The notes below the pieces were generated by a model that saw nothing but the letters and a program-made list of their open reading frames with translations, had not been told where the DNA came from and did no database searches. 64,000 nucleotides of DNA from Bacillota bacterium (GTDB taxonomy: Bacteria > Bacillota_I > Bacilli_A > RFN20 > CAG-826). The position numbers and the translations under genes are program-made. The DNA is taken from assembly GCA_036788815.1 (NCBI GenBank), contig DAIQMS010000002.1, forward strand, positions 17,485 through 81,484, in the 5' to 3' direction. This document shows positions 1 to 52,914 of the stretch, one piece after another (position 1 is the stretch's first letter; each line of letters opens with the position of its first letter).

Positions 1-32
1 TTCTTCGGTTTCCTTTGTAAAATATCTGAATA

Positions 33-2945: not shown

Positions 2946-3893
2946 ATGAACCAGAAAAAACTCTGCAAAAACCTCTTCCTTGCCGTTCTGGCCTTGCCGT
3001 TTTTGGGCAGTTGCAGCCACAGTGCGGTCGGGGTTTGCTATTGGACGGATCTCGGGACTCATTATGGCAACTACGTTTTCTCGGCCAAAGTCGCTTTGAC
3101 TCAAGGCGCGATCACGGAGGCCACCCTTTCGGAGACCTATCTTCCTGCGGTTTGGGCCCGGGTGGACGCCAATGAGTTTTCCACGAGCACCATCGAGACG
3201 ATTGAAGTCAAAGATGCCTATCTCCTGGATGGGACCCGGGGGACGGTGACGTTCGCCAAACACATTAAAGTCGGCAGCCTTTCGTTCACTGGCACCCTTC
3301 GGGATGAGAGCGTGGATGAAGACACGCCGTATCTGACGCGGGGCGATTACGTCCGCTATCGGTACGATGGTTTAAAAGACACGGACACCGATTCAACCTT
3401 GACCGATCTGAATCGTTATCTGGCTGAGCAAGACACTGGGGTCTATAAACTTGGCGGCCATTGCGGCTGGTATTTCCAGGCCGTGGCTTCCGGCGATATC
3501 CATGCCTATGGTTCGAAAACGGGCAGCACCGATCTTGATGTCGATTACACCTTGGGCTTCCCCGACAAAAAGCCGCTCCGGGAAGATTCGAGCTATTTCA
3601 GCAGCTGGGTTAGCGCGAAAGACGCCCTTTGCACGTACTTGAAGGGCAAAAAATTGAATTACGTCTATTCGGTCACCGATGCCGATGGCAATGTTTTCAA
3701 ATCCCTCAAGATGGCCAGCGACAAAAAGACTTACCTTTACAATCCAGGCTATGCGAATTCGGTCTATTCCGATGACAATTGGGAAACCATCACCGGCTGC
3801 ACGAATGAAGGAATGAGTTTGGATTCGATCAAAGCTTACCTGACGGGCTTCAACGTGGCTTTTGCCTCCGTTGAATATTCGTCTTTGCGATAA
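2946..3893 (+). CDS. lipoprotein of unknown function (inside the uronate operon)
   Basis: Signal peptide with lipobox LPFLGSC. No recognisable catalytic motifs. Confidence 0.65.
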   Translation: MNQKKLCKNLFLAVLALPFLGSCSHSAVGVCYWTDLGTHYGNYVFSAKVALTQGAITEATLSETYLPAVWARVDANEFSTSTIETIEVKDAYLLDGTRGTVTFAKHIKVGSLSFTGTLRDESVDEDTPYLTRGDYVRYRYDGLKDTDTDSTLTDLNRYLAEQDTGVYKLGGHCGWYFQAVASGDIHAYGSKTGSTDLDVDYTLGFPDKKPLREDSSYFSSWVSAKDALCTYLKGKKLNYVYSVTDADGNVFKSLKMASDKKTYLYNPGYANSVYSDDNWETITGCTNEGMSLDSIKAYLTGFNVAFASVEYSSLR

Positions 3894-3968
3894 CGCCGGA
3901 AAGGAGGGCTATGAAATACACGCTTCTCTACCCTTCCTTCAAAACGAAGGCCGTGACTTTTTCCTACG

Positions 3969-4514
3969 ATGACGGCGTTCGCCAAGAAAGAGACGATCGA
4001 AAAGTTTCTCTCCAAACTCCTCAAAACGGCCTATGTCCTCGAGGAGACCCCATCCAATATCTACAAGATCACCTTACCGGGCGGCGTTGCCTCCCAGGCG
4101 ATCCTCGAAGCCTCCTTCCAGGCGGCTTCCGCCGACTTCCAGGGAATGATCAAAGCCTTGATCGTCCCTTGCTTCAAAGAAAGCTTCACCGCCTATCTTC
4201 CCTTCGTGAAAGAAGGACGGATCGCCTACCTCTATGAATTAGGCCGCGACCACCCCGAGATCTACGAGGAGGGGCAGAACCTCATCTCTTCATTCGATGA
4301 GGAAATGCTCTTGACCCTCAAGATCTATATCGAGACCGAACGTTCGCCTTATCTCTCGGCCCTCCGCCTCTACGTTCACCGCAACACGGTGAGCTACCGG
4401 GTGGAACGCTTCGAAGAAAAGAGCGGCATCACCCTCGAGAATTGGGGCAATGCGATGTATGTCTATGAGCTGATCCGAGCCTATGAGAGACTCCATGGCG
4501 GATTCTCTCGCTAA
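3969..4514 (+). CDS. small protein with PucR/CdaR-type C-terminal HTH
   Basis: C-terminal LYVHRNTVSYRVERFEEKSGITL resembles PucR-family HTH_30. A strong-SD ATG at 3911 in another frame opens an ORF that runs into this one (see findings). Confidence 0.5.
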   Translation: MTAFAKKETIEKFLSKLLKTAYVLEETPSNIYKITLPGGVASQAILEASFQAASADFQGMIKALIVPCFKESFTAYLPFVKEGRIAYLYELGRDHPEIYEEGQNLISSFDEEMLLTLKIYIETERSPYLSALRLYVHRNTVSYRVERFEEKSGITLENWGNAMYVYELIRAYERLHGGFSR

Positions 4515-4550
4515 AAATTGCTGATAATACCGAATATCTCGGTAGGAGGA

Positions 4551-5201
4551 ATGCTTATGCAGAAATACGAAATCGTCGAAAAGCTCCTCGATTGCGGCGT
4601 CGTCGCCGTGATCCGGGCGAACGGGATCGAGGAAGCCGAAAAGCTCTCCGATGCTTGCGTGAAAGGCGGCATCAAAGGCCTTGAAGTGACCTTCACCGTC
4701 CCGGGCGCGGAAGATGTGATCGCCAAGCTCGCGAGCGTGAAAGACGCCCCCTATATCGTCGGCGCTGGCACCGTTTTGGATGCCACGACGGCTAGAATCG
4801 CGATTCTCAAAGGCGCGAAATTCATCGTTTCGCCGGCCTTTGACAAAGAAGTCGCCGAGATCTGCAATCTTTATGCGGTGCCTTATATGGCGGGCTGCTT
4901 CACCCTCACCGAAATCATTACGGCGATGAAAGCGGGAGTCGATGTGATCAAAGTCTTCCCGGGCAGCGCGGCTACTCCGGCTTATTTCAAAGCGGTCCAT
5001 GGACCGCTGCCACAAGCGAATCTCATGCCGACCGGCGGCGTCTCTTTGGAGAACGCCAAGGATTGGATCAAAGCAGGCGCGGTGGCGATTGGTACTGGCG
5101 GCGATCTGACCGCTCCGGCCAAGACCGGCGATTATGCCGAAGTGACTCGTCGGGCGAAGGAATTCGTCCGCTTGGTCCACGAAGCGCGGGAGGGCAAATA
5201 A
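4551..5201 (+). CDS. eda: 2-dehydro-3-deoxy-phosphogluconate / 4-hydroxy-2-oxoglutarate aldolase
   Basis: Full-length match to the KDPG aldolase family (GVVAVIRA, LEVTFTVPGA, KVFPG, PTGGV). SD TAGGAGGA precedes ATG 4551. The ORF track start at 4518 lacks an SD. Confidence 0.9.
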   Translation: MLMQKYEIVEKLLDCGVVAVIRANGIEEAEKLSDACVKGGIKGLEVTFTVPGAEDVIAKLASVKDAPYIVGAGTVLDATTARIAILKGAKFIVSPAFDKEVAEICNLYAVPYMAGCFTLTEIITAMKAGVDVIKVFPGSAATPAYFKAVHGPLPQANLMPTGGVSLENAKDWIKAGAVAIGTGGDLTAPAKTGDYAEVTRRAKEFVRLVHEAREGK

Positions 5202-18902: not shown

Positions 18903-19846
18903 AAACAATCGCCGAACTCAAAGATGGGGATAAGATCAGTTCCCAATTTCTCGTGAATGGCTGCACCAAAGGGGTGACGACCGCCTCGAGGAGCTATTTG
19001 ACCGTCTCGCTTCAGGACGCTACCGGAACGATGGATGCCAAGAAATGGGATATCGGCCCGAAAGACGAAGAAATCTTCGCTCCAGGCAATATCGTGAGCG
19101 TCGAAGCCGAAGTCCTTTCCTATAAAAATGCCTTGCAGATGAAACTCCTTTCGGGCGAGGCGCTCCCGCTTGAAGGCGTCGATTATACCCGTTTCGTCCC
19201 TTCGAGCCCCGTCAGTAAGGAAATCCTGATCAAAAAACTCCAGGATTATCTTGCTTCCTTAAAGAATCCGGACGTCAAAAAGCTCACGGAACACCTCGTG
19301 AAAAAGCATTATGATGCCTATGTCGATTATCCGGCCGCAGTCCGCAATCACCATAACTACGCCTCCGGTCTTCTTTATCATTCACTTTGCATGGCCGATG
19401 ACGCCGAAGCCCTTTGCAAGCTTTATCCGTCTCTTAACCGCGATGTCTTGATCGCCGGCGCGATCATCCACGACATTGGCAAAACCATCGAGCTTTCGGG
19501 CCCGATTGCCACGAAGTTCACCCTCGAAGGCAAACTCCTCGGCCACATCTCGATCATGCAGGCCGAAGTCAAAGAGGCCGCTGATACTTTGGGGATGACG
19601 GGCGAGATCCCGACGATCATGGAACACATGGTTCTTTCCCATCATAACCAGCCCGATTACGGTTCGCCGGTTCCGCCGGAGACCCGCGAGGCCTTGGCCT
19701 TGGCGATGATCGATGATTTCGATGCCAAAATGAACATTCTGGACAAAGCCTATCAAGGCGTTGTGCCCGGCGAGTGGACCCAGAAAGTCTTCACGATCGA
19801 CGACCGCTATTTCTACCTTCCGCTTTATACGAAAGACGCCAAATAA
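18899..19846 (+). CDS. yhaM: 3'-5' exoribonuclease YhaM (OB-fold plus HD domain)
   Basis: N-terminal OB fold and an HD motif (HSLCMADDAEALCKLYPSLNRDVLIAGAIIHDIGK). GGAGG SD lies 7 nt before ATG 18899. Confidence 0.8.
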   Translation: MKTIAELKDGDKISSQFLVNGCTKGVTTASRSYLTVSLQDATGTMDAKKWDIGPKDEEIFAPGNIVSVEAEVLSYKNALQMKLLSGEALPLEGVDYTRFVPSSPVSKEILIKKLQDYLASLKNPDVKKLTEHLVKKHYDAYVDYPAAVRNHHNYASGLLYHSLCMADDAEALCKLYPSLNRDVLIAGAIIHDIGKTIELSGPIATKFTLEGKLLGHISIMQAEVKEAADTLGMTGEIPTIMEHMVLSHHNQPDYGSPVPPETREALALAMIDDFDAKMNILDKAYQGVVPGEWTQKVFTIDDRYFYLPLYTKDAK

Positions 19847-20170
19847 AACCCTTCTCCGAAAAAATTTACAATTGTCACTTTGAGGTCTTTTTTGATACCT
19901 TTGGCAATGAAAACGCCTCTTCTTTTTGTCCAAAAGCCAAAAAGCGGGCGCTTTTCCTTTTCCCACGCCGGGCCGAAGGAAAACCCCTTATGTCGGAAAC
20001 CGGTTCTTTCGGAATGTTTCTGGTCCGAGTCCGATGGCGTGGAAAATCTTCCTTTTTTGCGCGTGAAATCGCTTACTAGCGACTTTTTCCAATAAGTCGA
20101 TTATTGTAGTCATTACCTCTAATGGGGGTATTCTTGAAAGGGGAAGCCGTTTTCTCAAACCACCTTCGCC

Positions 20171-21460
20171 TTGTCTAAAAATCAAAAAAATCGTATGGAT
20201 TTAACGCTTGCCGCCACCATCATCGTCCTCGTCGTCTTGACCTTGGTGATTTTCGCGTTCGTCTTTGTTGTTTTCCGCTCGATTCAAAAGTCGGAGCACA
20301 TCTTGGTCGATCAGGGAAACCGCGATCAGGAAATCATCACGGAGAAAGACAAGCAAAAGAGCAAGGCCTATAAGATCGGCAACCTCTTGACGAACATTCT
20401 TTCGGGCGTGATCGCTGCCTTCGCCATCGCGATGATGGCTTTCGCTCTTTATTTCAAATTCAGCAATAACTTGGCCTTCATCAATGGCCAATCGCAGATG
20501 GTGATTGCCTCCAACTCGATGTCTTATGTCGCCCGTGATGCCCAATATGCGACGAATGGCGGCTATCTTACCGACGCCATGGTGGCTCAGGAATTCAAAC
20601 GCGGCGATATTTTGACCGTCGAAAAGCCCCAGTCTGAGGAAGTTTTCACCACCTTGCAAAAAGACTCTTCGGGCAAATTGATCACCGAGAAAAGCATCTA
20701 TGGCAATGGTTACACCTATGTCCCAGTCCAAAGTGGCGTCCTTTATGAGATCTACGGCTACAACAACGATTACTCGAAGAAGTTGGTGGGCAATTCCTGG
20801 AATTCAGAGACCTCGATCATTATTCACCGGCTGGTTCGGATCTGGGCAGATGGCGACGGGAACATCGTCCTCAATTTCGCGGGGGACGCGGTGGGCGGAC
20901 TCGATGACGTCGATGTCAAACCTTCCGAGTTGGTCGCCCATTATCCGGGAACGTCCAAAATCTCCGGCTTGGGCTATGTCATCCTTTTCTTCCAATCGAT
21001 TTTCGGCGTGTATGCGGTTGCTTCAAGCGTCGTGATGCTCCTTTTCTCGGAACTTTATACCGGCAAGATTCAAAAGGATTACGACGTCCGTTGGGGCCAC
21101 ATCGACCATTCGCGCTTGGTCGTTTATGACCAAATCCAAGCCCAACGCGCCTTGATTCAGGACAAATGGGGCTCGCATCGCGAACTCTTAAAGGAACGGA
21201 AAGAAGCGTTTGAGCAAAAGGCCGCCGAACACCGTGAGGAAGTCAAGCAAGCGGTGGAAGAGCATCGCGAGGAAGTGAAAGCCAAAGTCGAAGAACATCG
21301 CGAGGAAGTGAAGGCTAAAGTGGCGGAGCGCCAGGAAACGGTGGGAGCGAAGCTCAGCCAAAAGAAAGCGGAAGCCGTGGCCAAAGAACCTGCCAAAAAG
21401 AAAGTCTTCGGCAAAAAGGGCATCGTCGTGAAGATCGTGAAATCGGACGACGAGAAATAA
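20171..21460 (+). CDS. SipW/Sec11-type (ER-type) signal peptidase I homolog with extra N-terminal TM region and a C-terminal coiled-coil tandem-repeat tail
   Basis: Catalytic-motif matches to SipW: SNSMS (compare SGSMEP), IIHRLV (compare THRI) and FAGDAVGG (compare KGDNN). A C-terminal TM helix ISGLGYVILFF resembles SipW's PYLGYIIGF. Differences from SipW: two N-terminal TM helices and a roughly 130-aa cytoplasmic tail with three EEHREEVKAKV repeats. The start is a TTG without a convincing SD. An internal ATG about 24 nt downstream would give MDLTLAAT. Confidence 0.5.
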   Translation: MSKNQKNRMDLTLAATIIVLVVLTLVIFAFVFVVFRSIQKSEHILVDQGNRDQEIITEKDKQKSKAYKIGNLLTNILSGVIAAFAIAMMAFALYFKFSNNLAFINGQSQMVIASNSMSYVARDAQYATNGGYLTDAMVAQEFKRGDILTVEKPQSEEVFTTLQKDSSGKLITEKSIYGNGYTYVPVQSGVLYEIYGYNNDYSKKLVGNSWNSETSIIIHRLVRIWADGDGNIVLNFAGDAVGGLDDVDVKPSELVAHYPGTSKISGLGYVILFFQSIFGVYAVASSVVMLLFSELYTGKIQKDYDVRWGHIDHSRLVVYDQIQAQRALIQDKWGSHRELLKERKEAFEQKAAEHREEVKQAVEEHREEVKAKVEEHREEVKAKVAERQETVGAKLSQKKAEAVAKEPAKKKVFGKKGIVVKIVKSDDEK

Positions 21461-21473
21461 GAAGAAGACGATG

Positions 21474-21540
21474 AGGAGCTCCCTTGAGGGCTCCTTTTTC
21501 TTTCGACCCTTAAGGTATTAACGCCGTAGCGGGCGTTTTT
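21474..21540 (+). terminator. tandem rho-independent terminators after the SipW-like gene
   Basis: First: GGAGCTCCC-ttga-GGGCTCC followed by TTTTTCTTT. Second: ACGCC-gtagc-GGGCGT followed by TTTTT. Confidence 0.65.
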
Positions 21541-21912
21541 ATTGGGCGCTAAAAATTTTACAATTGACGCTTGATTGTCAAATTTGATAGTTTAAATTCC
21601 ATTTTTAGGAGCCCCAAGGAGGGGACCTCTTGGTAAATAAATAAAAAAGCAGTGACTTTGAGAAGTGTCGACAAGACCTAATAAAGTGGTGGCTATTTAA
21701 AGATGTTGTTGACTCAGAAAAGTGAGGGTTATCCCCGGTTGTACGATGTCGGAAAGAATTCAGTAAAAACTAGTAATCGTCTGGTTTTCACCTCGTATGA
21801 AAACGCTTCCACGGGCATTTTTCAAAATCCTCGTGTATTGTATTGCTACTCCGATAAGGAGCGCGGTGCAGGAACACCGCGAAGCATTTAATCTGCAGGA
21901 GGATTAAAAAGT

Positions 21913-22515
21913 ATGAAACTCACCAACAAGATCGCTCTCATCTCTGGCCTTGGCTGCTTAGCCTTGGTCGGCACCGGGTTCGCAGCCTGGAGCTACATTG
22001 ACGCATCGAACGTCAGCGGTGGCACAGTCACGGCCGCTGCCGCTGCGACGAAAGTCGTTACGAACAGCGTCACCGGAACCATCTCTTTTAAAGAGGGCAC
22101 GATTTCCGCTTATGTCCTTTTGGATGAAAAAGACGTTAGTTCCGCTGGTGCCATTGAAGGCATCGCTTTCTGGAGCGCGACTGCGACGGGTGACGAAACC
22201 AGCACTAGTGCTACCCTTCCGACGATCACTCCAGTCTTCACGATGAGTGATGGCGCTGCGGTTCCGAGCTATCTCACTTATACGTATACCGTTGCCGTCG
22301 CTGCGACGGACACCAGCAAGGCTTCGCTCAAGGATTACGTTGCGGACTTCAGCACGACCACCGGTGTCGCTTGGACTTCGGGAACGGCGATCACTCTTCC
22401 GACTTTGACTTTCACCCAGAGCGCTGCTCCGCAGAGCAAGGCTGCCTATGATGTCATGGTCGCCGCGCTTGCGAACACCAAGATCACCTTCACCTTCAGC
22501 GCTGCGAACGCCTAA
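21913..22515 (+). CDS. secreted Thr/Ala-rich protein with SipW-cognate-type signal peptide (putative major fibre/matrix subunit)
   Basis: N-terminal ...LALVGTGFAAWSYIDASNV matches the G-x-W/F-A-x-F/Y-x-D pattern that follows the h-region in TasA/CalY-class signal peptides. C-terminal block YDVMVAALANTKITFTFS is shared with the next gene. Confidence 0.55.
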   Translation: MKLTNKIALISGLGCLALVGTGFAAWSYIDASNVSGGTVTAAAAATKVVTNSVTGTISFKEGTISAYVLLDEKDVSSAGAIEGIAFWSATATGDETSTSATLPTITPVFTMSDGAAVPSYLTYTYTVAVAATDTSKASLKDYVADFSTTTGVAWTSGTAITLPTLTFTQSAAPQSKAAYDVMVAALANTKITFTFSAANA

Positions 22516-22525
22516 TTTGGCTTTC

Positions 22526-22571
22526 GGCCCTAAGGTTGTTGTCAAAATTCCATTAGGGCCAGGCCTTTTTT
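22526..22571 (+). terminator. hairpin plus T6 after the first fibre-subunit gene
   Basis: Stem GGCCCTAA...TTAGGGCC with a long loop, then AGGCC TTTTTT. Confidence 0.45.
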
Positions 22572-22805
22572 AAGGTTTGGCCCTTTTGGTTCTCAAATCA
22601 CTTATTTGTCTGACCATTTAGGGAGATCGGTTCCTGGCCGATCTTGCTCGTAGGGAGCTCAGGTGAGGGCTCCCTAAATAGAAAAATGAAGCAAGATCCG
22701 CAAAAAGAACTGATCTCCGATACCCAGCAACTCACTATCTCATAGATCCGAACGAAGGGTCCTTATGAGATTCTTTTTGGTTCAAGGGAAAGGAGCGTAA
22801 CGCTT

Positions 22806-23447
22806 ATGAAAAAACTCAGCAAAACGACGTTGCTCCTTTTGCTCGGCTCTGCCGGTCTCCTCACGGTCGCGGGAGTTTCAGTTGGCTTTGCCGCCTGGAC
22901 GTATACCGACGCCGCTAACGTGGCTCCTTTGACCACCGGCGGAATGGCCAACGCCACTGGCGTGGCCACGACCACGACGACCGTTTCCGGTTCGATCAGC
23001 GTATCTGGTAGTGCCGTTGTCATCATTGATGACACGGGCTATACCACGGCGACGGATGGAACAAAAACGTATACGGCAGTGGCCTTTTGGGCCGATGCCA
23101 AACAAGATTATTCGACCGATTCGAGCAAGATCGTGAAACCGACGATGGCCGCGACGCTGACTTTGACCGATGCCACTGCGACGGTTCCTTCGGGCACCGC
23201 CTTTACTTATGCGATCGCAATCAGCAAGACGGATAGCGCTTTGGGCTATCTCTTGGATTATGTCGAGGATTTCTCAGCGACATCTTTGACTTGGGTCTCA
23301 GGCGTTTCCATCGCCTCGAGCCTTCCGACTTTAACAATCAAAACGACCGCGGTTCCCCAGACGCTTGATCAATACAACACGATGATCGAAGCGCTTGATA
23401 ACACCGTGATTACATTTACCTTCAGCGTGAAAGGACCGACGGCATGA
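22806..23447 (+). CDS. paralogous secreted protein with SipW-cognate-type signal peptide
   Basis: N-terminal ...VAGVSVGFAAWTYTDAANV. Shares FW, DFS.T..W.SG and NT.ITFTFS blocks with 21913-22515. Confidence 0.55.
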   Translation: MKKLSKTTLLLLLGSAGLLTVAGVSVGFAAWTYTDAANVAPLTTGGMANATGVATTTTTVSGSISVSGSAVVIIDDTGYTTATDGTKTYTAVAFWADAKQDYSTDSSKIVKPTMAATLTLTDATATVPSGTAFTYAIAISKTDSALGYLLDYVEDFSATSLTWVSGVSIASSLPTLTIKTTAVPQTLDQYNTMIEALDNTVITFTFSVKGPTA

Positions 23448-24334
23448 AATTCGCTTTCATGAAAAAACTCTTCGCCCACCCGGTTCTTTTGAGCCTGCTT
23501 TCGCTTTCGGTCTGCGCCGCTGGCGCGGGCGTTGGTTATGCGACTTGGGCCTATACTTCCGTCAACGTTGATCCTTCCGCCAATGCTTATAAGAACGGGA
23601 CGGCCACGGCCGGGGCGTTCAATTTTGCCTATGATGTGGCTCCGACCTATCCGGTTGAACCCGAAACGACGAAATCCGGCAATACGGGCGGTTATTACGA
23701 TGCCGATGGCAATGAGATCACCGAAACCTATACGTTTGGCATCAGGACGACGAAAGTCAAGAAAAAGACCTATTACTACATCGAAACGGTTTATCTCCCT
23801 TCTTCCTATACCCAAAGCGATTTGCCCAACTTCATTTTCCCGACCTACGTGACTTATTCGTCTCAGGATGGCGGTTATGTTCCTTCAACGAGCGGCTATG
23901 CCGTTTCCGGAACCTATGATTGGACTTCGAACGCTCACGATAACGCGGATGCGCTCAATATCATCCTTCCGTATTCTTACACCAAGATCGGCACCTATTC
24001 GCTTGCGGGCTTCTATGGCATGACCACGGTGACGATCACCCAAGTGGGCAATACGGCGAAATCCTCCGCCCTCACGATTGGGGCCAATGCGTTCCAGGAC
24101 GATTATGCTTTGACCTACGTTAACCTCTCCTCGAATGTGACGAGCATCGGGAAGAACGCCTTTGTTTGCGGAACGGATTACACCCCGGCGCCGACGGTTT
24201 ATATCACCTTTGACGGGACTTCTGCCGCCTGGGCGAATGTCACGCTTGCCAGCAGTTGGAATGGTGGCCGCTCCATTGTGGTGAGAACCACGGAGAGCGA
24301 TGGCAGCTACGTCTATCACACCTACGGCGCCTGA
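23444..24334 (+). CDS. secreted protein with SipW-cognate-type signal peptide and C-terminal BspA-like leucine-rich-repeat domain (candidate tip or adhesin subunit)
   Basis: N-terminal ...CAAGAGVGYATWAYTSVNV. C-terminal LRR_5-like repeats (TIGANAFQDDYALTYVNLSSNVTSIGKNAFVCG). Start overlaps the preceding stop (ATGA). Confidence 0.55.
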   Translation: MKFAFMKKLFAHPVLLSLLSLSVCAAGAGVGYATWAYTSVNVDPSANAYKNGTATAGAFNFAYDVAPTYPVEPETTKSGNTGGYYDADGNEITETYTFGIRTTKVKKKTYYYIETVYLPSSYTQSDLPNFIFPTYVTYSSQDGGYVPSTSGYAVSGTYDWTSNAHDNADALNIILPYSYTKIGTYSLAGFYGMTTVTITQVGNTAKSSALTIGANAFQDDYALTYVNLSSNVTSIGKNAFVCGTDYTPAPTVYITFDGTSAAWANVTLASSWNGGRSIVVRTTESDGSYVYHTYGA

Positions 24335-24353
24335 GCTCGCGTCTTGGATTCTT

Positions 24354-24379
24354 GGCCGTCCTTCGGGACGGCTTTTCTT
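24354..24379 (+). terminator. rho-independent terminator
   Basis: GGCCGTCC-ttcg-GGACGGC followed by TTTTCTT. Confidence 0.75.
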
Positions 24380-24679
24380 ATTGCAAGAGAAAAGGCATTC
24401 CCCGCTTCCGGATTGGAATGCCTTTGTCGTAGCGTTTTCTCGCCTTGCTCCACCGAACGTGAGCCTCAGGATCCCATCCTCAGCGAGAAACTGCCATACG
24501 AGTCTTTTTTACCCCGAGGGGGAGAGTCATCCTTCGGGGTTTTCGGGAATCGCTTCCCTTTCGTCACCCCTAATATAGCACCGATTTCTAAAAAGGTGTA
24601 AGCGCTTACACCCTTCCGAGGCATGACCCTCCTTTTTCGTCCCGACAGAAGGGGAAAAAGAGCCCTTTTGTAAATTTTG

Positions 24680-24714
24680 TGGTTCTCAGAAAAGAACCAA
24701 TCCTCTCGGATTGG
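24680..24714 (-). terminator. rho-independent terminator of the HIT gene (minus strand)
   Basis: CCAATCC-gaga-GGATTGG, followed on the minus strand by TTCTTTTCT. Confidence 0.6.
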
Positions 24715-24737
24715 CTCTCAAACGTCAAGAAACGGCC

Positions 24738-25154
24738 TTATTTCATCTTTTCGGAGATCGAACGAGCCAGAAGCGGCAAATCCATCTTCGACGTGTCCTG
24801 GGCCTTCATGGTGAGCTGGAAGCCGCCTTCGCCCCCGAGGTAACGCGGAATCACGTGGACGTGGAAGTGGGGGACGCTTTGGCCGGCGCTTTCGCCGACG
24901 TTGGTCAAGATGTTGACGCCTTTGGCACCCAAGACCGCGATCTCGGCTTGGCCGATCCGCTGGGCGACGTCGTAGACTTTGTGCATCAGATCCTTCGGGC
25001 AGGAAAGGAAGCTATCGTAATGCTTCTTTGGCATCACGAGGGTGTGGCCCTTCGTCGTTTGCGAGATGTCGAGGATCGCGAGCACATCGTCATCCTCGTA
25101 GACTTTGACTGAGGGGATCTCCCCATCGATGATTTTGCAGAAGACGTCTTTCAT
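24738..25154 (-). CDS. HIT-family (histidine triad) nucleotide hydrolase
   Basis: HxHxHxx motif VPHFHVHVIP. Typical length (138 aa). Confidence 0.85.
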   Translation of the reverse strand: MKDVFCKIIDGEIPSVKVYEDDDVLAILDISQTTKGHTLVMPKKHYDSFLSCPKDLMHKVYDVAQRIGQAEIAVLGAKGVNILTNVGESAGQSVPHFHVHVIPRYLGGEGGFQLTMKAQDTSKMDLPLLARSISEKMK

Positions 25155-42965: not shown

Positions 42966-43308
42966 GGTTCACTTGGGCTTTTGAATTGTAAAATTTGTTC
43001 TTAATATTTCGCCCAATCAGTGACTATCTCTAGTCATTGTAAGGAATTTGTTTTCGTTGAAAAAGAAAACTGAAACGAATCAAAAAGAGGCCCAAAAATG
43101 CCCAAAAAGTGAGGAAAAACCTCATCTTTTGCCCGAAAATGCTCTGAAAGCGCTTTCTTATTTTTGAGCGGTCGCTAGCCGAAATTCGAAAATAAAAAAG
43201 AATAAAGCCCGATAAAATCTATACACTCCGACATCCTAAAGGTCTTGTAAAGCGTTTTTCGGGGTGCTAGTTTATAGATAACCAATTTAGCAAAGGAGGA
43301 TTAAATCC

Positions 43309-51063: not shown

Positions 51064-51351
51064 GCCTAAATTTGGAATTATCCTTGGCAAAACCCCATCC
51101 TTTTTTCGGGGGATTTTTGGAGGGAAAAAAGAAAGGGCAGGCCCAAAGCGCGCTTTCCCTATTTTTGATAGCGCTTCCCTTCCGACCTTGCTACAATAGT
51201 GACGTACCGAAAGGTACTTACCACCCATAGATTGCGTTTGGGTTCTCGTAATCGGGTTCACCCCGTTAAGATAAACACATCAGTCAATCCTATTTTTCGT
51301 GTGAGGTGGAGTAGCGCTTTTTTCGGATGAACATAAAGGAGTAGTTTCAGT

Positions 51352-52914
51352 ATGGAATGGTGGATTGGCCTGATCATTGGCATCGTAGCTCTTTTGCTTG
51401 GAATTGGCGGCACTGTCTTGGTTTTTAAGCTCGTTCCGGCGATGAAGAACAAGAATGCCGACAAACAGGCGAAATTGATTATTCGTGACGCCGAGATCAA
51501 GGCGGAACGGATCACGAAGAATGCCGAACTTGACGCGAAGCAAGCCGCTTTCGAAGCTAAGCAGAACGCTCAGAACGAAATCCGGCAGATGAAGCAGGAG
51601 ATTCAAGGTGAGCAGGCGAAGCTCGATTTGCGGGAGCAGACGATCGATGCCCGCGACAATACCCTTCTTCAAAAGGAAAACGCCCTCGATCAGAAGAACG
51701 ACGCGTTGACGGCGAAGATCGCCGAAACCGACAAGAAGAGCCAAGACCTCGATGCCAAGATCAATAGCATCTTGACCGAACTCGAGAAAGTCTCCGGCAT
51801 GTCCGTCAAGGAAGCCCACGACGAGATTCTCTCCCGCGTCGAGAATAAGATGGCGGGCGAAATCGCCGCCTATATCAAGAACCAGGAAGACGAAGCCCGG
51901 GACACCGCAGAGAACAAAGCCCGCGATTTGCTCTCGCTCGCTTGCGATAAGTACGCGCAGGAAGTCACGACCGAACGCACGGTCGCGGTCATTCCGCTTC
52001 CTTCGGATGAGCTTAAGGGCCGCATCATCGGCCGCGAAGGACGCAACATCCGCGTTTTGGAACAGACCTTGGGCGTCGACCTGGTGATCGACGATACCCC
52101 GGAAGTCATCACGGTGAGTTGCTTCGATCCGATCCGCCGCGAAATCGCGCGCCGGACGATGGAAGCCCTCGTCAAAGATGGCCGAATCCAGCCGGGCCGC
52201 ATCGAAGAAGTGGCTGCTAAGATGAAAGCCAACGTCGACACCGAAACCCAGAAGGCCGGCGAAGAAGCCTGCCTCAAACTCGGGCTTCCGCGCATCAGCA
52301 AAGAACTCTGCGGCTACTTGGGCAAACTCAAATACCGCACTTCGTTTGGCCAGAACGCTTTGGACCACTCGGTCGAAGTCGCCTACCTCACCGGCATCAT
52401 GGCCGCGGAATTGGGCCTCGATCAGAACTTGGCCCGGAGAGCGGGCTTGCTCCACGATATCGGCAAAGCGGTGGACTTCGAGCAAGAAGGCTCCCACGTT
52501 CAACTCGGCGCCGAACTCGCCCGCAAGTACAACGAGCCGGATGTCGTCATCAACTCGATTGAGTCGCACCACGGCGACGTCGAGGCGAAGAGCGTTATCG
52601 CTCACCTCGTCCAAGCCGCTGATACGCTCTCGGCCGCCCGTCCAGGCGCCCGCAGCGAGACCTTGGAGACCTATGTGAAACGCATTGGCCAGCTCGAGGA
52701 GATCGCCCGGGGCTTCGAAGGCGTCCAGCAAGCCTATGCCATGCAAGCGGGCCGCGAGGTTCGCGTGATGGTCATTCCGGACAAAGTCAGCGATGCCGAT
52801 GCCGTCAAGATGGCGCAGGAAATGCGCGAGAAGATCGAATCGACCATGACCTATCCGGGCACGATCAAAGTGTCCGTCATCCGTGAGTATCGAGCCGTTG
52901 AGACCGCGAAGTAA
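51352..52914 (+). CDS. rny: ribonuclease Y
   Basis: N-terminal TM helix, coiled coil, KH domain (GRIIGREGRNIR) and HD domain (LLHDIGKA). Confidence 0.95.
   Translation: MEWWIGLIIGIVALLLGIGGTVLVFKLVPAMKNKNADKQAKLIIRDAEIKAERITKNAELDAKQAAFEAKQNAQNEIRQMKQEIQGEQAKLDLREQTIDARDNTLLQKENALDQKNDALTAKIAETDKKSQDLDAKINSILTELEKVSGMSVKEAHDEILSRVENKMAGEIAAYIKNQEDEARDTAENKARDLLSLACDKYAQEVTTERTVAVIPLPSDELKGRIIGREGRNIRVLEQTLGVDLVIDDTPEVITVSCFDPIRREIARRTMEALVKDGRIQPGRIEEVAAKMKANVDTETQKAGEEACLKLGLPRISKELCGYLGKLKYRTSFGQNALDHSVEVAYLTGIMAAELGLDQNLARRAGLLHDIGKAVDFEQEGSHVQLGAELARKYNEPDVVINSIESHHGDVEAKSVIAHLVQAADTLSAARPGARSETLETYVKRIGQLEEIARGFEGVQQAYAMQAGREVRVMVIPDKVSDADAVKMAQEMREKIESTMTYPGTIKVSVIREYRAVETAK

What the first reader, a model, noticed from the sequence alone, without database searches (positions are those of the whole stretch)
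19861..21589. Shared upstream motif AAA(A)TTTTACAATTG ... TTGATA in front of both the SipW-like gene and the first cognate-substrate gene
The sequence AAAATTTACAATTGTCAC (19861-19878) and AAAAATTTTACAATTGAC (21551-21568) are near-identical. In both, a TTGATA hexamer follows exactly 21 nt after TTTACA (19892-19897 and 21584-21589). Each lies in the 5' region of an independent transcription unit of the same putative system, downstream of a terminator. A third, reverse-oriented copy (rc of 42981-42997: AAATTTTACAATTC) sits after der. The 21-nt spacing is too long for a standard sigma-A -35/-10 pair. This points to an alternative sigma factor or a dedicated activator or repressor site co-regulating the peptidase and its substrate genes.
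Basis: seen in the sequence. Interest (0 to 1): 0.55.

Follow-up and report, generated by a model that had tools for sequence, protein, structure and literature searches.

The report
Conserved upstream DNA box beside cre-controlled promoters
The repeated sequence is real and conserved in related uncultured bacteria, but it is most likely a binding site for an unknown regulator at the far edge of sugar-regulated (cre) control regions, including ones unrelated to the peptidase, and not a special promoter for the peptidase and its substrates.

Summary
AAAATTTACAATTG (19861-19874) and AAATTTTACAATTG (21553-21566) exist, each with TTGATA 21 nt after TTTACA, and a reverse copy lies at 42983-42996.

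The core, AAAWTTTACAAWK, is conserved at the same positions in related metagenomic lineages:
- yhaM-sip spacer: 3 lineages
- sip-sub1 spacer: 2 lineages
- der-hbs spacer: 3 lineages, reversed

A variant, AAATTTACAAAG, sits 57-58 nt upstream of a cre palindrome at the promoter of an unannotated small RNA in 6 lineages. Three of these lack the peptidase cassette.

TTGATA is not conserved, and no copy has a -10 element 16-18 nt downstream. The reading as a bipartite alternative-sigma promoter dedicated to this system is therefore not supported.

What the peptidase and substrate genes do share is a proximal promoter 190-235 nt further downstream: a cre palindrome, exactly 24 nt, then TATTGTA.

All five window copies of the box are intergenic, and four of them share their spacer with one of the window's four intergenic cre sites.

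Best reading: an orientation-independent operator for an unidentified regulator, acting alongside catabolite control. This is inferred, not shown. Interest is modest.

The parts
19861..19874 (+). Box copy 1 (AAAATTTACAATTG). It starts 15 nt after the yhaM stop codon and lies 192 nt upstream of the cre of the peptidase gene.
   Evidence: TTTACAATTG is invariant at the orthologous place in L011 and L013. It is absent after yhaM in the lineages that lack the cassette.
21553..21566 (+). Box copy 2 (AAATTTTACAATTG). It follows the two terminators after the peptidase gene and lies 234 nt upstream of the cre of sub1.
   Evidence: L011 has TTTTACAATTC at its equivalent spacer, 11360.
42983..42996 (-). 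Box copy 3 (AAATTTTACAATTC on the minus strand), 18 nt after the der stop codon. It is in reverse orientation relative to the downstream HU gene and lies 152 nt from a cre.
   Evidence: AATTGTAAAATTT is invariant in three lineages whose spacers are only 68-73% identical overall.
24665..24678 (-). Box copy 4 (AAAATTTACAAAAG on the minus strand), between the HIT-gene terminator and the promoter of a small-RNA gene, 57 nt upstream of its cre.
   Evidence: AAATTTACAAAG (or AAATTTTACAATTG) is conserved in 6 lineages with a gap of 57-58 nt, while the sequence in between is not conserved.
14..22 (-). Box copy 5 (TTTTACAAA on the minus strand), about 35-40 nt upstream of the likely start of an epimerase-family gene. 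There is no cre in its spacer.
19892..19897 (+). It is not a conserved partner element.
21584..21589 (+). In this species it can also be read as part of an extended -10, TGATAGTTT, 18 nt after TTGACG (21564-21569).
   Evidence: It is not conserved in L011.
20064..20077 (+). cre-type palindrome (TGAAATCGCTTACT) of the proximal promoter of the peptidase gene.
20102..20108 (+). TATTGTA, the putative -10 of the peptidase gene, exactly 24 nt after the cre.
   Evidence: The spacing is the same in win, L011 and L013.
21798..21811 (+). cre-type palindrome (TGAAAACGCTTCCA) of the proximal promoter of sub1.
21836..21842 (+). TATTGTA, the putative -10 of sub1, exactly 24 nt after the cre.
24597..24610 (.). 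Perfect cre palindrome TGTAAGCGCTTACA overlapping the -35 of the small-RNA promoter. The -10, TATATT, is at 24572-24577 on the minus strand.
43145..43158 (+). cre-type palindrome (TGAAAGCGCTTTCT) in the der-hbs spacer.
   Evidence: It is conserved in L029 and L031.
20195..21460 (+).
   Evidence: Ser-x-Ser-Met, His-Arg and Gly-Asp motifs are invariant. The best fold match is SEC11 of the human signal peptidase complex. There is no HMM hit.
21913..22515 (+). sub1, the first putative substrate gene. Its N-terminus carries GFAAWSY.
   Evidence: Its paralogue is at 22806-23447 and its homologue is in L013.

Best explanation
The box, consensus AAAWTTTACAAWK, is a conserved double-stranded DNA element that works in either orientation. 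It is most likely the binding site of an unidentified sequence-specific regulator. It sits at the upstream edge of long regulatory spacers whose core promoters carry a cre (CcpA-type) palindrome.

In front of the peptidase gene and of sub1, transcription most likely starts 190-235 nt downstream of the box. The promoter there has a cre, exactly 24 nt, then TATTGTA, with no recognisable -35. The box would add a second input, activating or repressing, on top of catabolite control.

The same box serves the HU gene, a small-RNA gene and an epimerase-led gene cluster, so it belongs to a wider regulon and not to the peptidase system alone.

Shown here: the sequence, its conservation, its restriction to intergenic DNA, its co-occurrence with cre, and its independence of orientation. 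Inferred: that a protein binds it, and what that binding does.
For: 1. Phylogenetic footprints in four independent contexts:
- yhaM-sip in 3 lineages
- sip-sub1 in 2 lineages
- HIT to small RNA in 6 lineages, with the flanks fully diverged and a constant 57-58 nt gap to cre
- der-hbs in 3 lineages with spacers 68-73% identical

2. In 17 aligned copies (15 checked in register; mis-anchored L023, corrected) the seven core bases TTTACAA never vary, and the 5' flank is A-rich. By contrast, the -10 hexamers of this genome's recognisable promoters differ from one another (TATAAT, TACAAT, TAGTTT, TATATT, TATTGT).

3. All 5 window copies lie in the roughly 7% of the window that is intergenic. Four of the 5 share their spacer with one of the only 4 intergenic cre sites. 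Fisher's exact test gives p = 3e-4, or about 1e-3 when the edge copy is counted.

4. The box is reversed in front of hbs and the epimerase gene, which argues against a directional promoter element.

5. After yhaM the box is present only where the peptidase cassette is present.
Against: - No protein has been identified.
- The motif is asymmetric, whereas most bacterial regulators bind repeats.
- The distance to the core promoter ranges from about 57 to 234 nt with no helical phasing.
- The box contains -10-like hexamers on both strands (TACAAT and TAAAAT/TAAATT), so promoter activity cannot be excluded.
- Only about 73 kb of this genome, plus short stretches from relatives, could be searched, so the regulon and the link to cre rest on few cases.
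- One copy has no cre nearby.
Confidence: 0.45

Rival explanations
1. The box is itself a weak housekeeping-sigma promoter that lacks a -35. Its -10 would be TACAAT on the box strand, or TAAAAT/TAAATT on the other strand. It would produce long-leader transcripts, with the downstream cre acting as a roadblock, or it would produce antisense transcripts into the 3' end of the upstream gene.
For: TACAAT is used as a -10 elsewhere in the window (TGCTACAAT near 51190). In front of hbs and the epimerase gene, the TAAAAT reading points toward the gene, and for the epimerase gene it is the only promoter-like element within about 60 nt of the ribosome-binding site. 13 of 15 copies give TAAAWT on the complementary strand.
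Against: - No copy has a -35 or a correctly spaced TG extension.
- Five of the six small-RNA copies read TACAAA, which lacks the critical last T.
- The whole 11-13-mer is conserved, not just the T-A...T positions.
- With one fixed orientation of the 13-mer, three of the five contexts would fire into the upstream gene.
- The 5' stem-loops that vary in sequence between lineages while each can still pair lie just downstream of the proximal TATTGTA.
Confidence: 0.2
2. In this species only, the box adjoins a housekeeping-sigma promoter. The arrangement would be TTGTCA or TTGACG (overlapping the 3' end of the box), 18 nt, then TGaTACCTT or TGaTAGTTT. The reader's TTGATA would then be the TG extension plus the start of a -10, and the 21-nt spacing would come from pairing the wrong hexamers.
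For:: both copies have the same geometry. The consensus scan flags TTGACG-16-GATAGT at 21564-21591. TAGTTT with a TG extension is also the likely -10 of hbs P1 (43268-43273).
Against: This arrangement is not conserved. L011 and L013 have GCTGCT and GACCAG where the -10 should be. TACCTT in copy 1 is a poor -10. The reading explains neither the conservation of the box nor the hbs and small-RNA copies.
Confidence: 0.1
3. One reading: TTTACA and TTGATA, 21 nt apart, are the two recognition elements of an alternative sigma factor or of a dedicated regulator that co-controls only the peptidase and its substrates.
For: Both window copies have the identical 21-nt spacing. TTGA persists 21-23 nt after the box in the three yhaM-sip orthologues.
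Against: - The hexamer itself is not conserved (TTGAGC, TTGACC).
- It is missing at that spacing in the L011 sip-sub1 copy (TTGACG at +16) and in all hbs and small-RNA copies.
- The box also occurs at unrelated genes and in lineages without the cassette.
Confidence: 0.03
4. The box is a half-site or degenerate operator for a CopY/BlaI/MecI-type winged-helix repressor. The Lactococcus CopR operators read GTTTACAATTGTAAAC.
For: Copy 1 (ATTTACAATTGTCACT) fits the 16-nt family consensus RNYKACANNTGTMRNY. TTTACAATTG is identical to the left half plus centre of the L. lactis copB and yahC operators (PMC7253601).
Against: The TGT of the second half-site is missing in 14 of 15 copies, and that paper shows the full TACANNTGTA is necessary for binding. 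There is no copper-export or beta-lactamase context. About 0.3 chance matches to the consensus are expected in a window of this size (own estimate).
Confidence: 0.07
5. The box acts at the RNA level or belongs to transcription termination or insulation at the 3' end of the upstream gene. It would then be a 3'-UTR element or a roadblock site that shields the regulated promoters from read-through.
For: Every copy lies within roughly 15-95 nt of the end of the upstream gene. In win, L011 and L013 the yhaM copy precedes a weak hairpin plus a T-run. The L013 HIT copy directly precedes a terminator hairpin.
Against: Several copies lie beyond strong terminators and so would not be transcribed. The orientation relative to the upstream gene is reversed at der. 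Other gene ends in the window lack the box.
Confidence: 0.07
6. The two copies are a relic of duplication with no function. One ancestral upstream region would have been copied in front of both genes.
For: The proximal promoters of sip and sub1 also resemble each other between the cre and TATTGTA, which fits a duplicated control region.
Against: The box is retained across lineages whose encoded proteins are only 38-59% identical, while the flanking spacer sequence has diverged. Independent copies are conserved at hbs and at the small-RNA gene.
Confidence: 0.05

Closest known systems
cre (catabolite-responsive element) and CcpA control in Bacillota, consensus TGWAANCGNTNWCA
   Same: The box accompanies cre palindromes in four spacers. 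Its core, TTTACAA (TTGTAAA on the other strand), resembles the outer half of the perfect cre TGTAAGCGCTTACA found in the same regions.
   Different: The box lacks the central CG and the second half-site, and has at least 4 mismatches to the consensus. It is not itself a cre. It lies 57-234 nt away from the real cre.
Control region of tapA-sipW-tasA in Bacillus subtilis, which carries SinR, AbrB and RemA sites upstream of the promoter (from general knowledge)
   Same: A long upstream region with distal regulator sites lies in front of an operon that combines an ER-type signal peptidase with its secreted substrates.
   Different: No SinR-type GTTCTYT repeats were seen at the box. The peptidase and substrates here are on separate transcription units and have no HMM-level similarity to SipW or TasA. 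The box also serves unrelated genes.
A promoter upstream (UP) element followed by a -35 hexamer
   Same: An A-tract immediately followed by TTTACA looks like a proximal UP subsite plus a near-consensus -35.
   Different: No -10 lies 16-18 nt downstream in any of the 15 copies, and the box also occurs reversed.
CopR/CopY/BlaI 'cop box', TACANNTGTA or RNYKACANNTGTMRNY (PMC7253601)
   Same: TTTACAATTG equals the left half plus centre of the Lactococcus CopR operators, and copy 1 fits the 16-nt consensus.
   Different: Only one half-site is conserved, and the genomic context is unrelated to copper or beta-lactams.

Membership tests
Housekeeping-sigma (sigma-70/sigma-A) promoter | A -35-like and a -10-like hexamer separated by 16-18 nt | tested here: not met
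   TTTACA and TTGATA are 21 nt apart. No TAnnnT lies 16-18 nt after TTTACA in any of 15 copies.
Alternative-sigma bipartite promoter | Both elements conserved at fixed spacing in orthologues and across the regulon | tested here: not met
   The first element is conserved. The second is TTGATA, TTGAGC or TTGACC, or absent, and its spacing varies between 16, 21 and 23 nt.
Alternative-sigma bipartite promoter | Transcription start a few nt downstream of the second element, dependent on that sigma factor | not testable with these tools
   This needs 5'-end mapping. No expression data were available.
cre / CcpA operator | A 14-nt palindrome TGWAANCGNTNWCA with a central CG | tested here: not met
   The box has at least 4 mismatches and no CG. 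By contrast, the neighbouring sites at 20064, 21798, 24597 and 43145 match with 0-1 mismatch.
CopY/BlaI/MecI operator | The inverted repeat TACANNTGTA within RNYKACANNTGTMRNY | tested here: not met
   Met by copy 1 only. The other 14 copies lack the TGT half.
CopY/BlaI/MecI operator | A cognate repressor gene and a copper-export or beta-lactamase target next to the site | tested here: inconclusive
   The genes flanking the five box-bearing spacers, and the gene calls in the related loci, show no copper-export, beta-lactamase or BlaI/CopY-type gene. The window's other genes were not scanned, and the rest of the genome was not available.
CodY box | AATTTTCWGAAAATT with few mismatches | tested here: not met
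   The best manual alignment gives 7 of 15 positions, using the sequences.
ER/archaeal-type signal peptidase (SipW-like, S26B), for the 421-aa protein | Catalytic Ser (S-x-S-M) and His (H-R) boxes plus a G-D box | tested here: met
   S106, S108, M109, H211, R212, G230 and D231 are invariant in 7 homologues.
ER/archaeal-type signal peptidase (SipW-like, S26B), for the 421-aa protein | A match to the family's profile models | tested here: not met
   No Pfam, NCBIfam or PDB-profile hit to any peptidase.
ER/archaeal-type signal peptidase (SipW-like, S26B), for the 421-aa protein | The fold of the catalytic domain | tested here: inconclusive
   The AlphaFold model has a mean pLDDT of 65. The top PDB matches are SEC11A and SEC11C (7p2p_A, 7p2q_A) with probability 0.97-0.99, but E = 0.012-0.028 and TM = 0.53 on the target.

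The most novel reading that the evidence does not exclude
The box and the cre together form a two-site control module not described before in an uncultured Bacilli lineage. An unknown regulator bound to AAAWTTTACAAWK would cooperate with, or oppose, the cre-binding protein. Together they would set expression of a mobile cassette of peptidase and secreted proteins, of the nucleoid protein HU and of a conserved small RNA. The cre-N24-TATTGTA promoters lack a -35, so they would be activated, not repressed, from a cre centred near -43.
Probability: 0.2. Interest if true: 0.5.

Novelty: new member of a known kind. Interest (0 to 1): 0.3.

Why it matters
If a regulator does bind the box, it defines a small regulon in a poorly known, uncultured group of Bacilli. 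That regulon would link catabolite control to three things: a divergent ER-type signal peptidase cassette, HU, and an unannotated small RNA.

The practical result is a correction. The peptidase and its substrate genes are tied together by a shared cre-N24-TATTGTA promoter, not by an unusual sigma-factor promoter. The box is also not specific to that system.

The finding gives clear targets for 5'-end mapping and DNA pull-down, but it does not bear on a long-standing open question.

Tried and rejected
- Rfam scans of the whole window and of 19700-22100 and 24300-24760 found no riboswitch or leader at the box or in the two leaders. The only hit there was a sub-threshold L20-leader match, E = 0.12.
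- Protein-based retrieval of related loci with the peptidase alignment failed in both genome contigs and metagenome contigs. A DNA pattern for the small-RNA promoter (cre plus GCTATATT) worked instead.
- P0002 and the YhaM protein could not be looked up by exact sequence. The right-hand extension of the window gave almost no new sequence.
- I compared the box by eye with published consensus sites for CodY, Rex, WalR, PhoP, TnrA/GlnR, DnaA, IHF, SinR, sigma-B/D/H/E/W and sigma-54, and with the Bacteroidetes -7 element. None fitted across the copies. These comparisons rest on my recollection of the consensus sequences, not on a tool.
- Helical phasing between box and cre: the gaps of 57, 72, 148-152, 176, 192, 223, 227 and 234 nt show no common phase.
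- Two full-text searches for the motif returned only the CopY operator paper as relevant.
- Homologues P0005-P0008 were not used, because their contigs (about 1.6 kb) are too short to include the upstream region.
Full report
**Observation**

AAAATTTACAATTG lies at 19861-19874 and AAATTTTACAATTG at 21553-21566, each followed by TTGATA exactly 21 nt after TTTACA. A reverse copy, AAATTTTACAATTC, lies at 42983-42996.

The repeat is more than chance:
- The 33-nt pattern allowing 3 mismatches finds only these two places, against none in 100 shuffles.
- TTTACAATT occurs 3 times against 0.31 expected.
- The best local alignment between the two upstream regions is this 39-nt stretch. It scores 31, against 19 +/- 2.7 for shuffles.

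Copy 1 is not behind a terminator. It begins 15 nt after the stop codon of the upstream gene, a YhaM-type exoribonuclease. Copy 2 does follow two terminators.

**Genes involved**

The gene at 20195-21460 encodes a 421-aa membrane protein with only nine detectable homologues. It has no Pfam, NCBIfam or PDB-profile match to a peptidase.

Its homologues do keep the Ser-x-Ser-Met, His-Arg and Gly-Asp boxes typical of ER/archaeal-type signal peptidases. A moderate-confidence model (pLDDT 65) finds SEC11 of the human signal peptidase complex as its best PDB match (probability 0.99, E = 0.012). 'SipW-like' is therefore reasonable but not firmly established.

sub1 (21913-22515) and sub2 (22806-23447) are paralogues. 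Both share an N-terminal GFAAW(S/T)Y motif, which also appears, as GYATWAY, in the next gene.

**Related loci**

Exact-protein look-ups and two DNA-pattern scans gave syntenic loci from several lineages:
- The same species (L001-L010).
- L011, whose peptidase is 59% identical.
- L013, 38% identical, where a sub1 homologue precedes the peptidase.
- Three lineages (L016/L021, L018/L028, L023) in which yhaM is followed directly by a terminator and a convergent small-RNA gene. These have no peptidase cassette.

**Conservation of the box**

- TTTACAATTG is invariant just after yhaM in the window, L011 and L013.
- L011 has TTTTACAATTC between its peptidase gene and sub1.
- L013 has a second copy in the same spacer.
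- After yhaM the box is present only where the cassette is present.
- A variant, AAATTTACAAAG (AAATTTTACAATTG in L013), lies 57-58 nt upstream of a perfect palindrome, TGTAAGCGCTTACA, at the promoter of the small-RNA gene. This holds in six lineages, although the sequence in between is completely diverged.
- The reverse copy after der is invariant (AATTGTAAAATTT) in three lineages whose der-hbs spacers are only 68-73% identical.
- A fifth window copy (14-22, minus strand) lies about 35-40 nt before the likely start of an epimerase-family gene.

Aligning the copies gives AAAWTTTACAAWK, with TTTACAA unvarying.

**The TTGATA partner**

TTGATA is not conserved. At the orthologous place L011 has TTGAGC and L013 has TTGACC, 2 nt further on. 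The L011 sip-sub1 copy has TTGACG only 16 nt after TTTACA. The hbs and small-RNA copies have nothing comparable.

No copy has a TAnnnT hexamer 16-18 nt after TTTACA. The genome otherwise uses ordinary promoters:
- TTGCAG-16-TATAAT before the FMN riboswitch
- TGCTACAAT near 51190
- TTGTAA-17-TAGTTT with a TG extension before hbs

That arrangement is not conserved either.

**What the two genes really share**

A search for the cre consensus TGWAANCGNTNWCA gives 13 strand-matches at 9 distinct sites, against 2.8 expected. Four of the 9 sites are intergenic, at 20064, 21798, 24597 and 43145.

The same perfect palindrome sits at promoters of LacI-family and other genes in unrelated Bacillota, so it is a canonical cre.

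In all five cassette promoters the cre is followed by exactly 24 non-conserved nt and then TATTGTA (TATTCTA in L013). These are sip and sub1 in the window and in L011, and the sub gene in L013 (the L011 sip promoter was read by hand). There is no -35 hexamer. The short leaders that follow can each form stem-loops whose sequences differ between lineages.

This is the best candidate for the shared core promoter, with the cre centred near -43. The distal box lies 176-234 nt upstream of it.

**Association with cre**

All five box copies in the window are intergenic, although spacers make up about 7% of the window. Among 18 spacers, the four with a cre are exactly the four with a box (Fisher p = 3e-4). 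The fifth copy, at the window edge, has no cre in its spacer, which weakens the p-value to about 1e-3. L011 and L013 show the same pairing.

**Interpretation**

Several features fit a binding site for a sequence-specific protein better than a promoter element:
- an invariant 7-nt core within an 11-13-nt motif
- conservation in four unrelated contexts
- occurrence in either orientation
- variable distance to the core promoters

That a protein binds the box, and what it does, is inference.

The main rival is a weak promoter without a -35, because the box contains TACAAT on one strand and TAAAAT/TAAATT on the other. For hbs and the epimerase gene, the TAAAAT reading points toward the gene. Against this rival:
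- Five of the six small-RNA copies read TACAAA.
- The whole motif is conserved, not just the key -10 positions.
- With one fixed orientation, three of the five contexts would fire into the upstream gene.

Copy 1 alone fits the CopY/CopR operator consensus, and TTTACAATTG equals half of the Lactococcus CopR operator (PMC7253601). The second half-site is missing in the other copies, so this remains only a lead.

**Verdict**

It is wrong on the bipartite structure, on the alternative sigma factor, and on the box being specific to the peptidase system.

The element is an unassigned member of a familiar class, conserved upstream regulator sites. It is of modest interest.

Noticed in passing
window 24383-24566 (minus strand); L011/L022, L013, L016, L018, L023: An unannotated small-RNA gene of about 190 nt lies between the LRR gene and the HIT gene. 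It has a promoter (a perfect cre overlapping the -35, then TGCTATATT), a terminator, and base changes that keep stems paired across six lineages. Nothing in Rfam matches it, even at E <= 10. It folds better than shuffled sequence (z = -2.8).
   Followed up: partly
window 20064-20108 and 21798-21842; L011 9907-9951 and 11590-11634; L013 9289-9333: A promoter architecture of cre, exactly 24 nt, then TATTGTA, with no -35, is shared by the peptidase and substrate genes in three lineages. A cre centred near -43 at a promoter without a -35 hints at activation and not repression.
   Followed up: partly
window 19847-24380 compared with L016, L018, L021, L023, L028: The whole peptidase and substrate cassette (sip, sub1, sub2 and the LRR protein) is present in some lineages and absent in close relatives. 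In those relatives yhaM directly abuts the small-RNA gene, so the cassette is an insertion or deletion unit.
   Followed up: partly
window 21913-24334: Three consecutive proteins share an N-terminal hydrophobic segment that ends in G(F/Y)A(A/T)W(S/T/A)Y. This could be the recognition or cleavage motif for the peptidase. No NCBIfam or Pfam family matches sub1 or sub2.
   Followed up: no
window 20195-21460: The peptidase-like protein carries a long C-terminal helix (residues about 269-364) with repeated EEHREEVKAKV units, followed by a conserved KKVFGKKGxxVKIVKSDD tail. This is unusual for a signal peptidase.
   Followed up: no
window 42966-43308: The der-hbs spacer has several blocks conserved in three lineages besides the box: a cre at 43145, GAAAAACCTCATCTTTTGCCC, and a proximal promoter TTGTAA-17-TAGTTT (43245-43273). 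This suggests complex control of the HU gene.
   Followed up: partly
window 19907-19919: ATGAAAACGCCTC, 35 nt after box copy 1, is nearly identical to the left half of the sub1 cre (ATGAAAACGCTTC at 21797-21809). AATGAAAA is also present at the matching place in L013.
   Followed up: no
window 51150-51351: A TGCTACAAT promoter is followed by a leader of about 150 nt in front of the RNase Y gene (51352-52914). No Rfam family matches it.
   Followed up: no
window about 2946-5200 compared with L039, L040, L041: Strains of the same species differ by a block of several kb after the short-chain dehydrogenase gene. The block includes polysaccharide deacetylase, GDSL lipase, an ABC ATPase and GH88-type genes. 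It is present in L039 and absent in L040 and L041, so this is a strain-variable region. Its exact extent in the window was not aligned.
   Followed up: no
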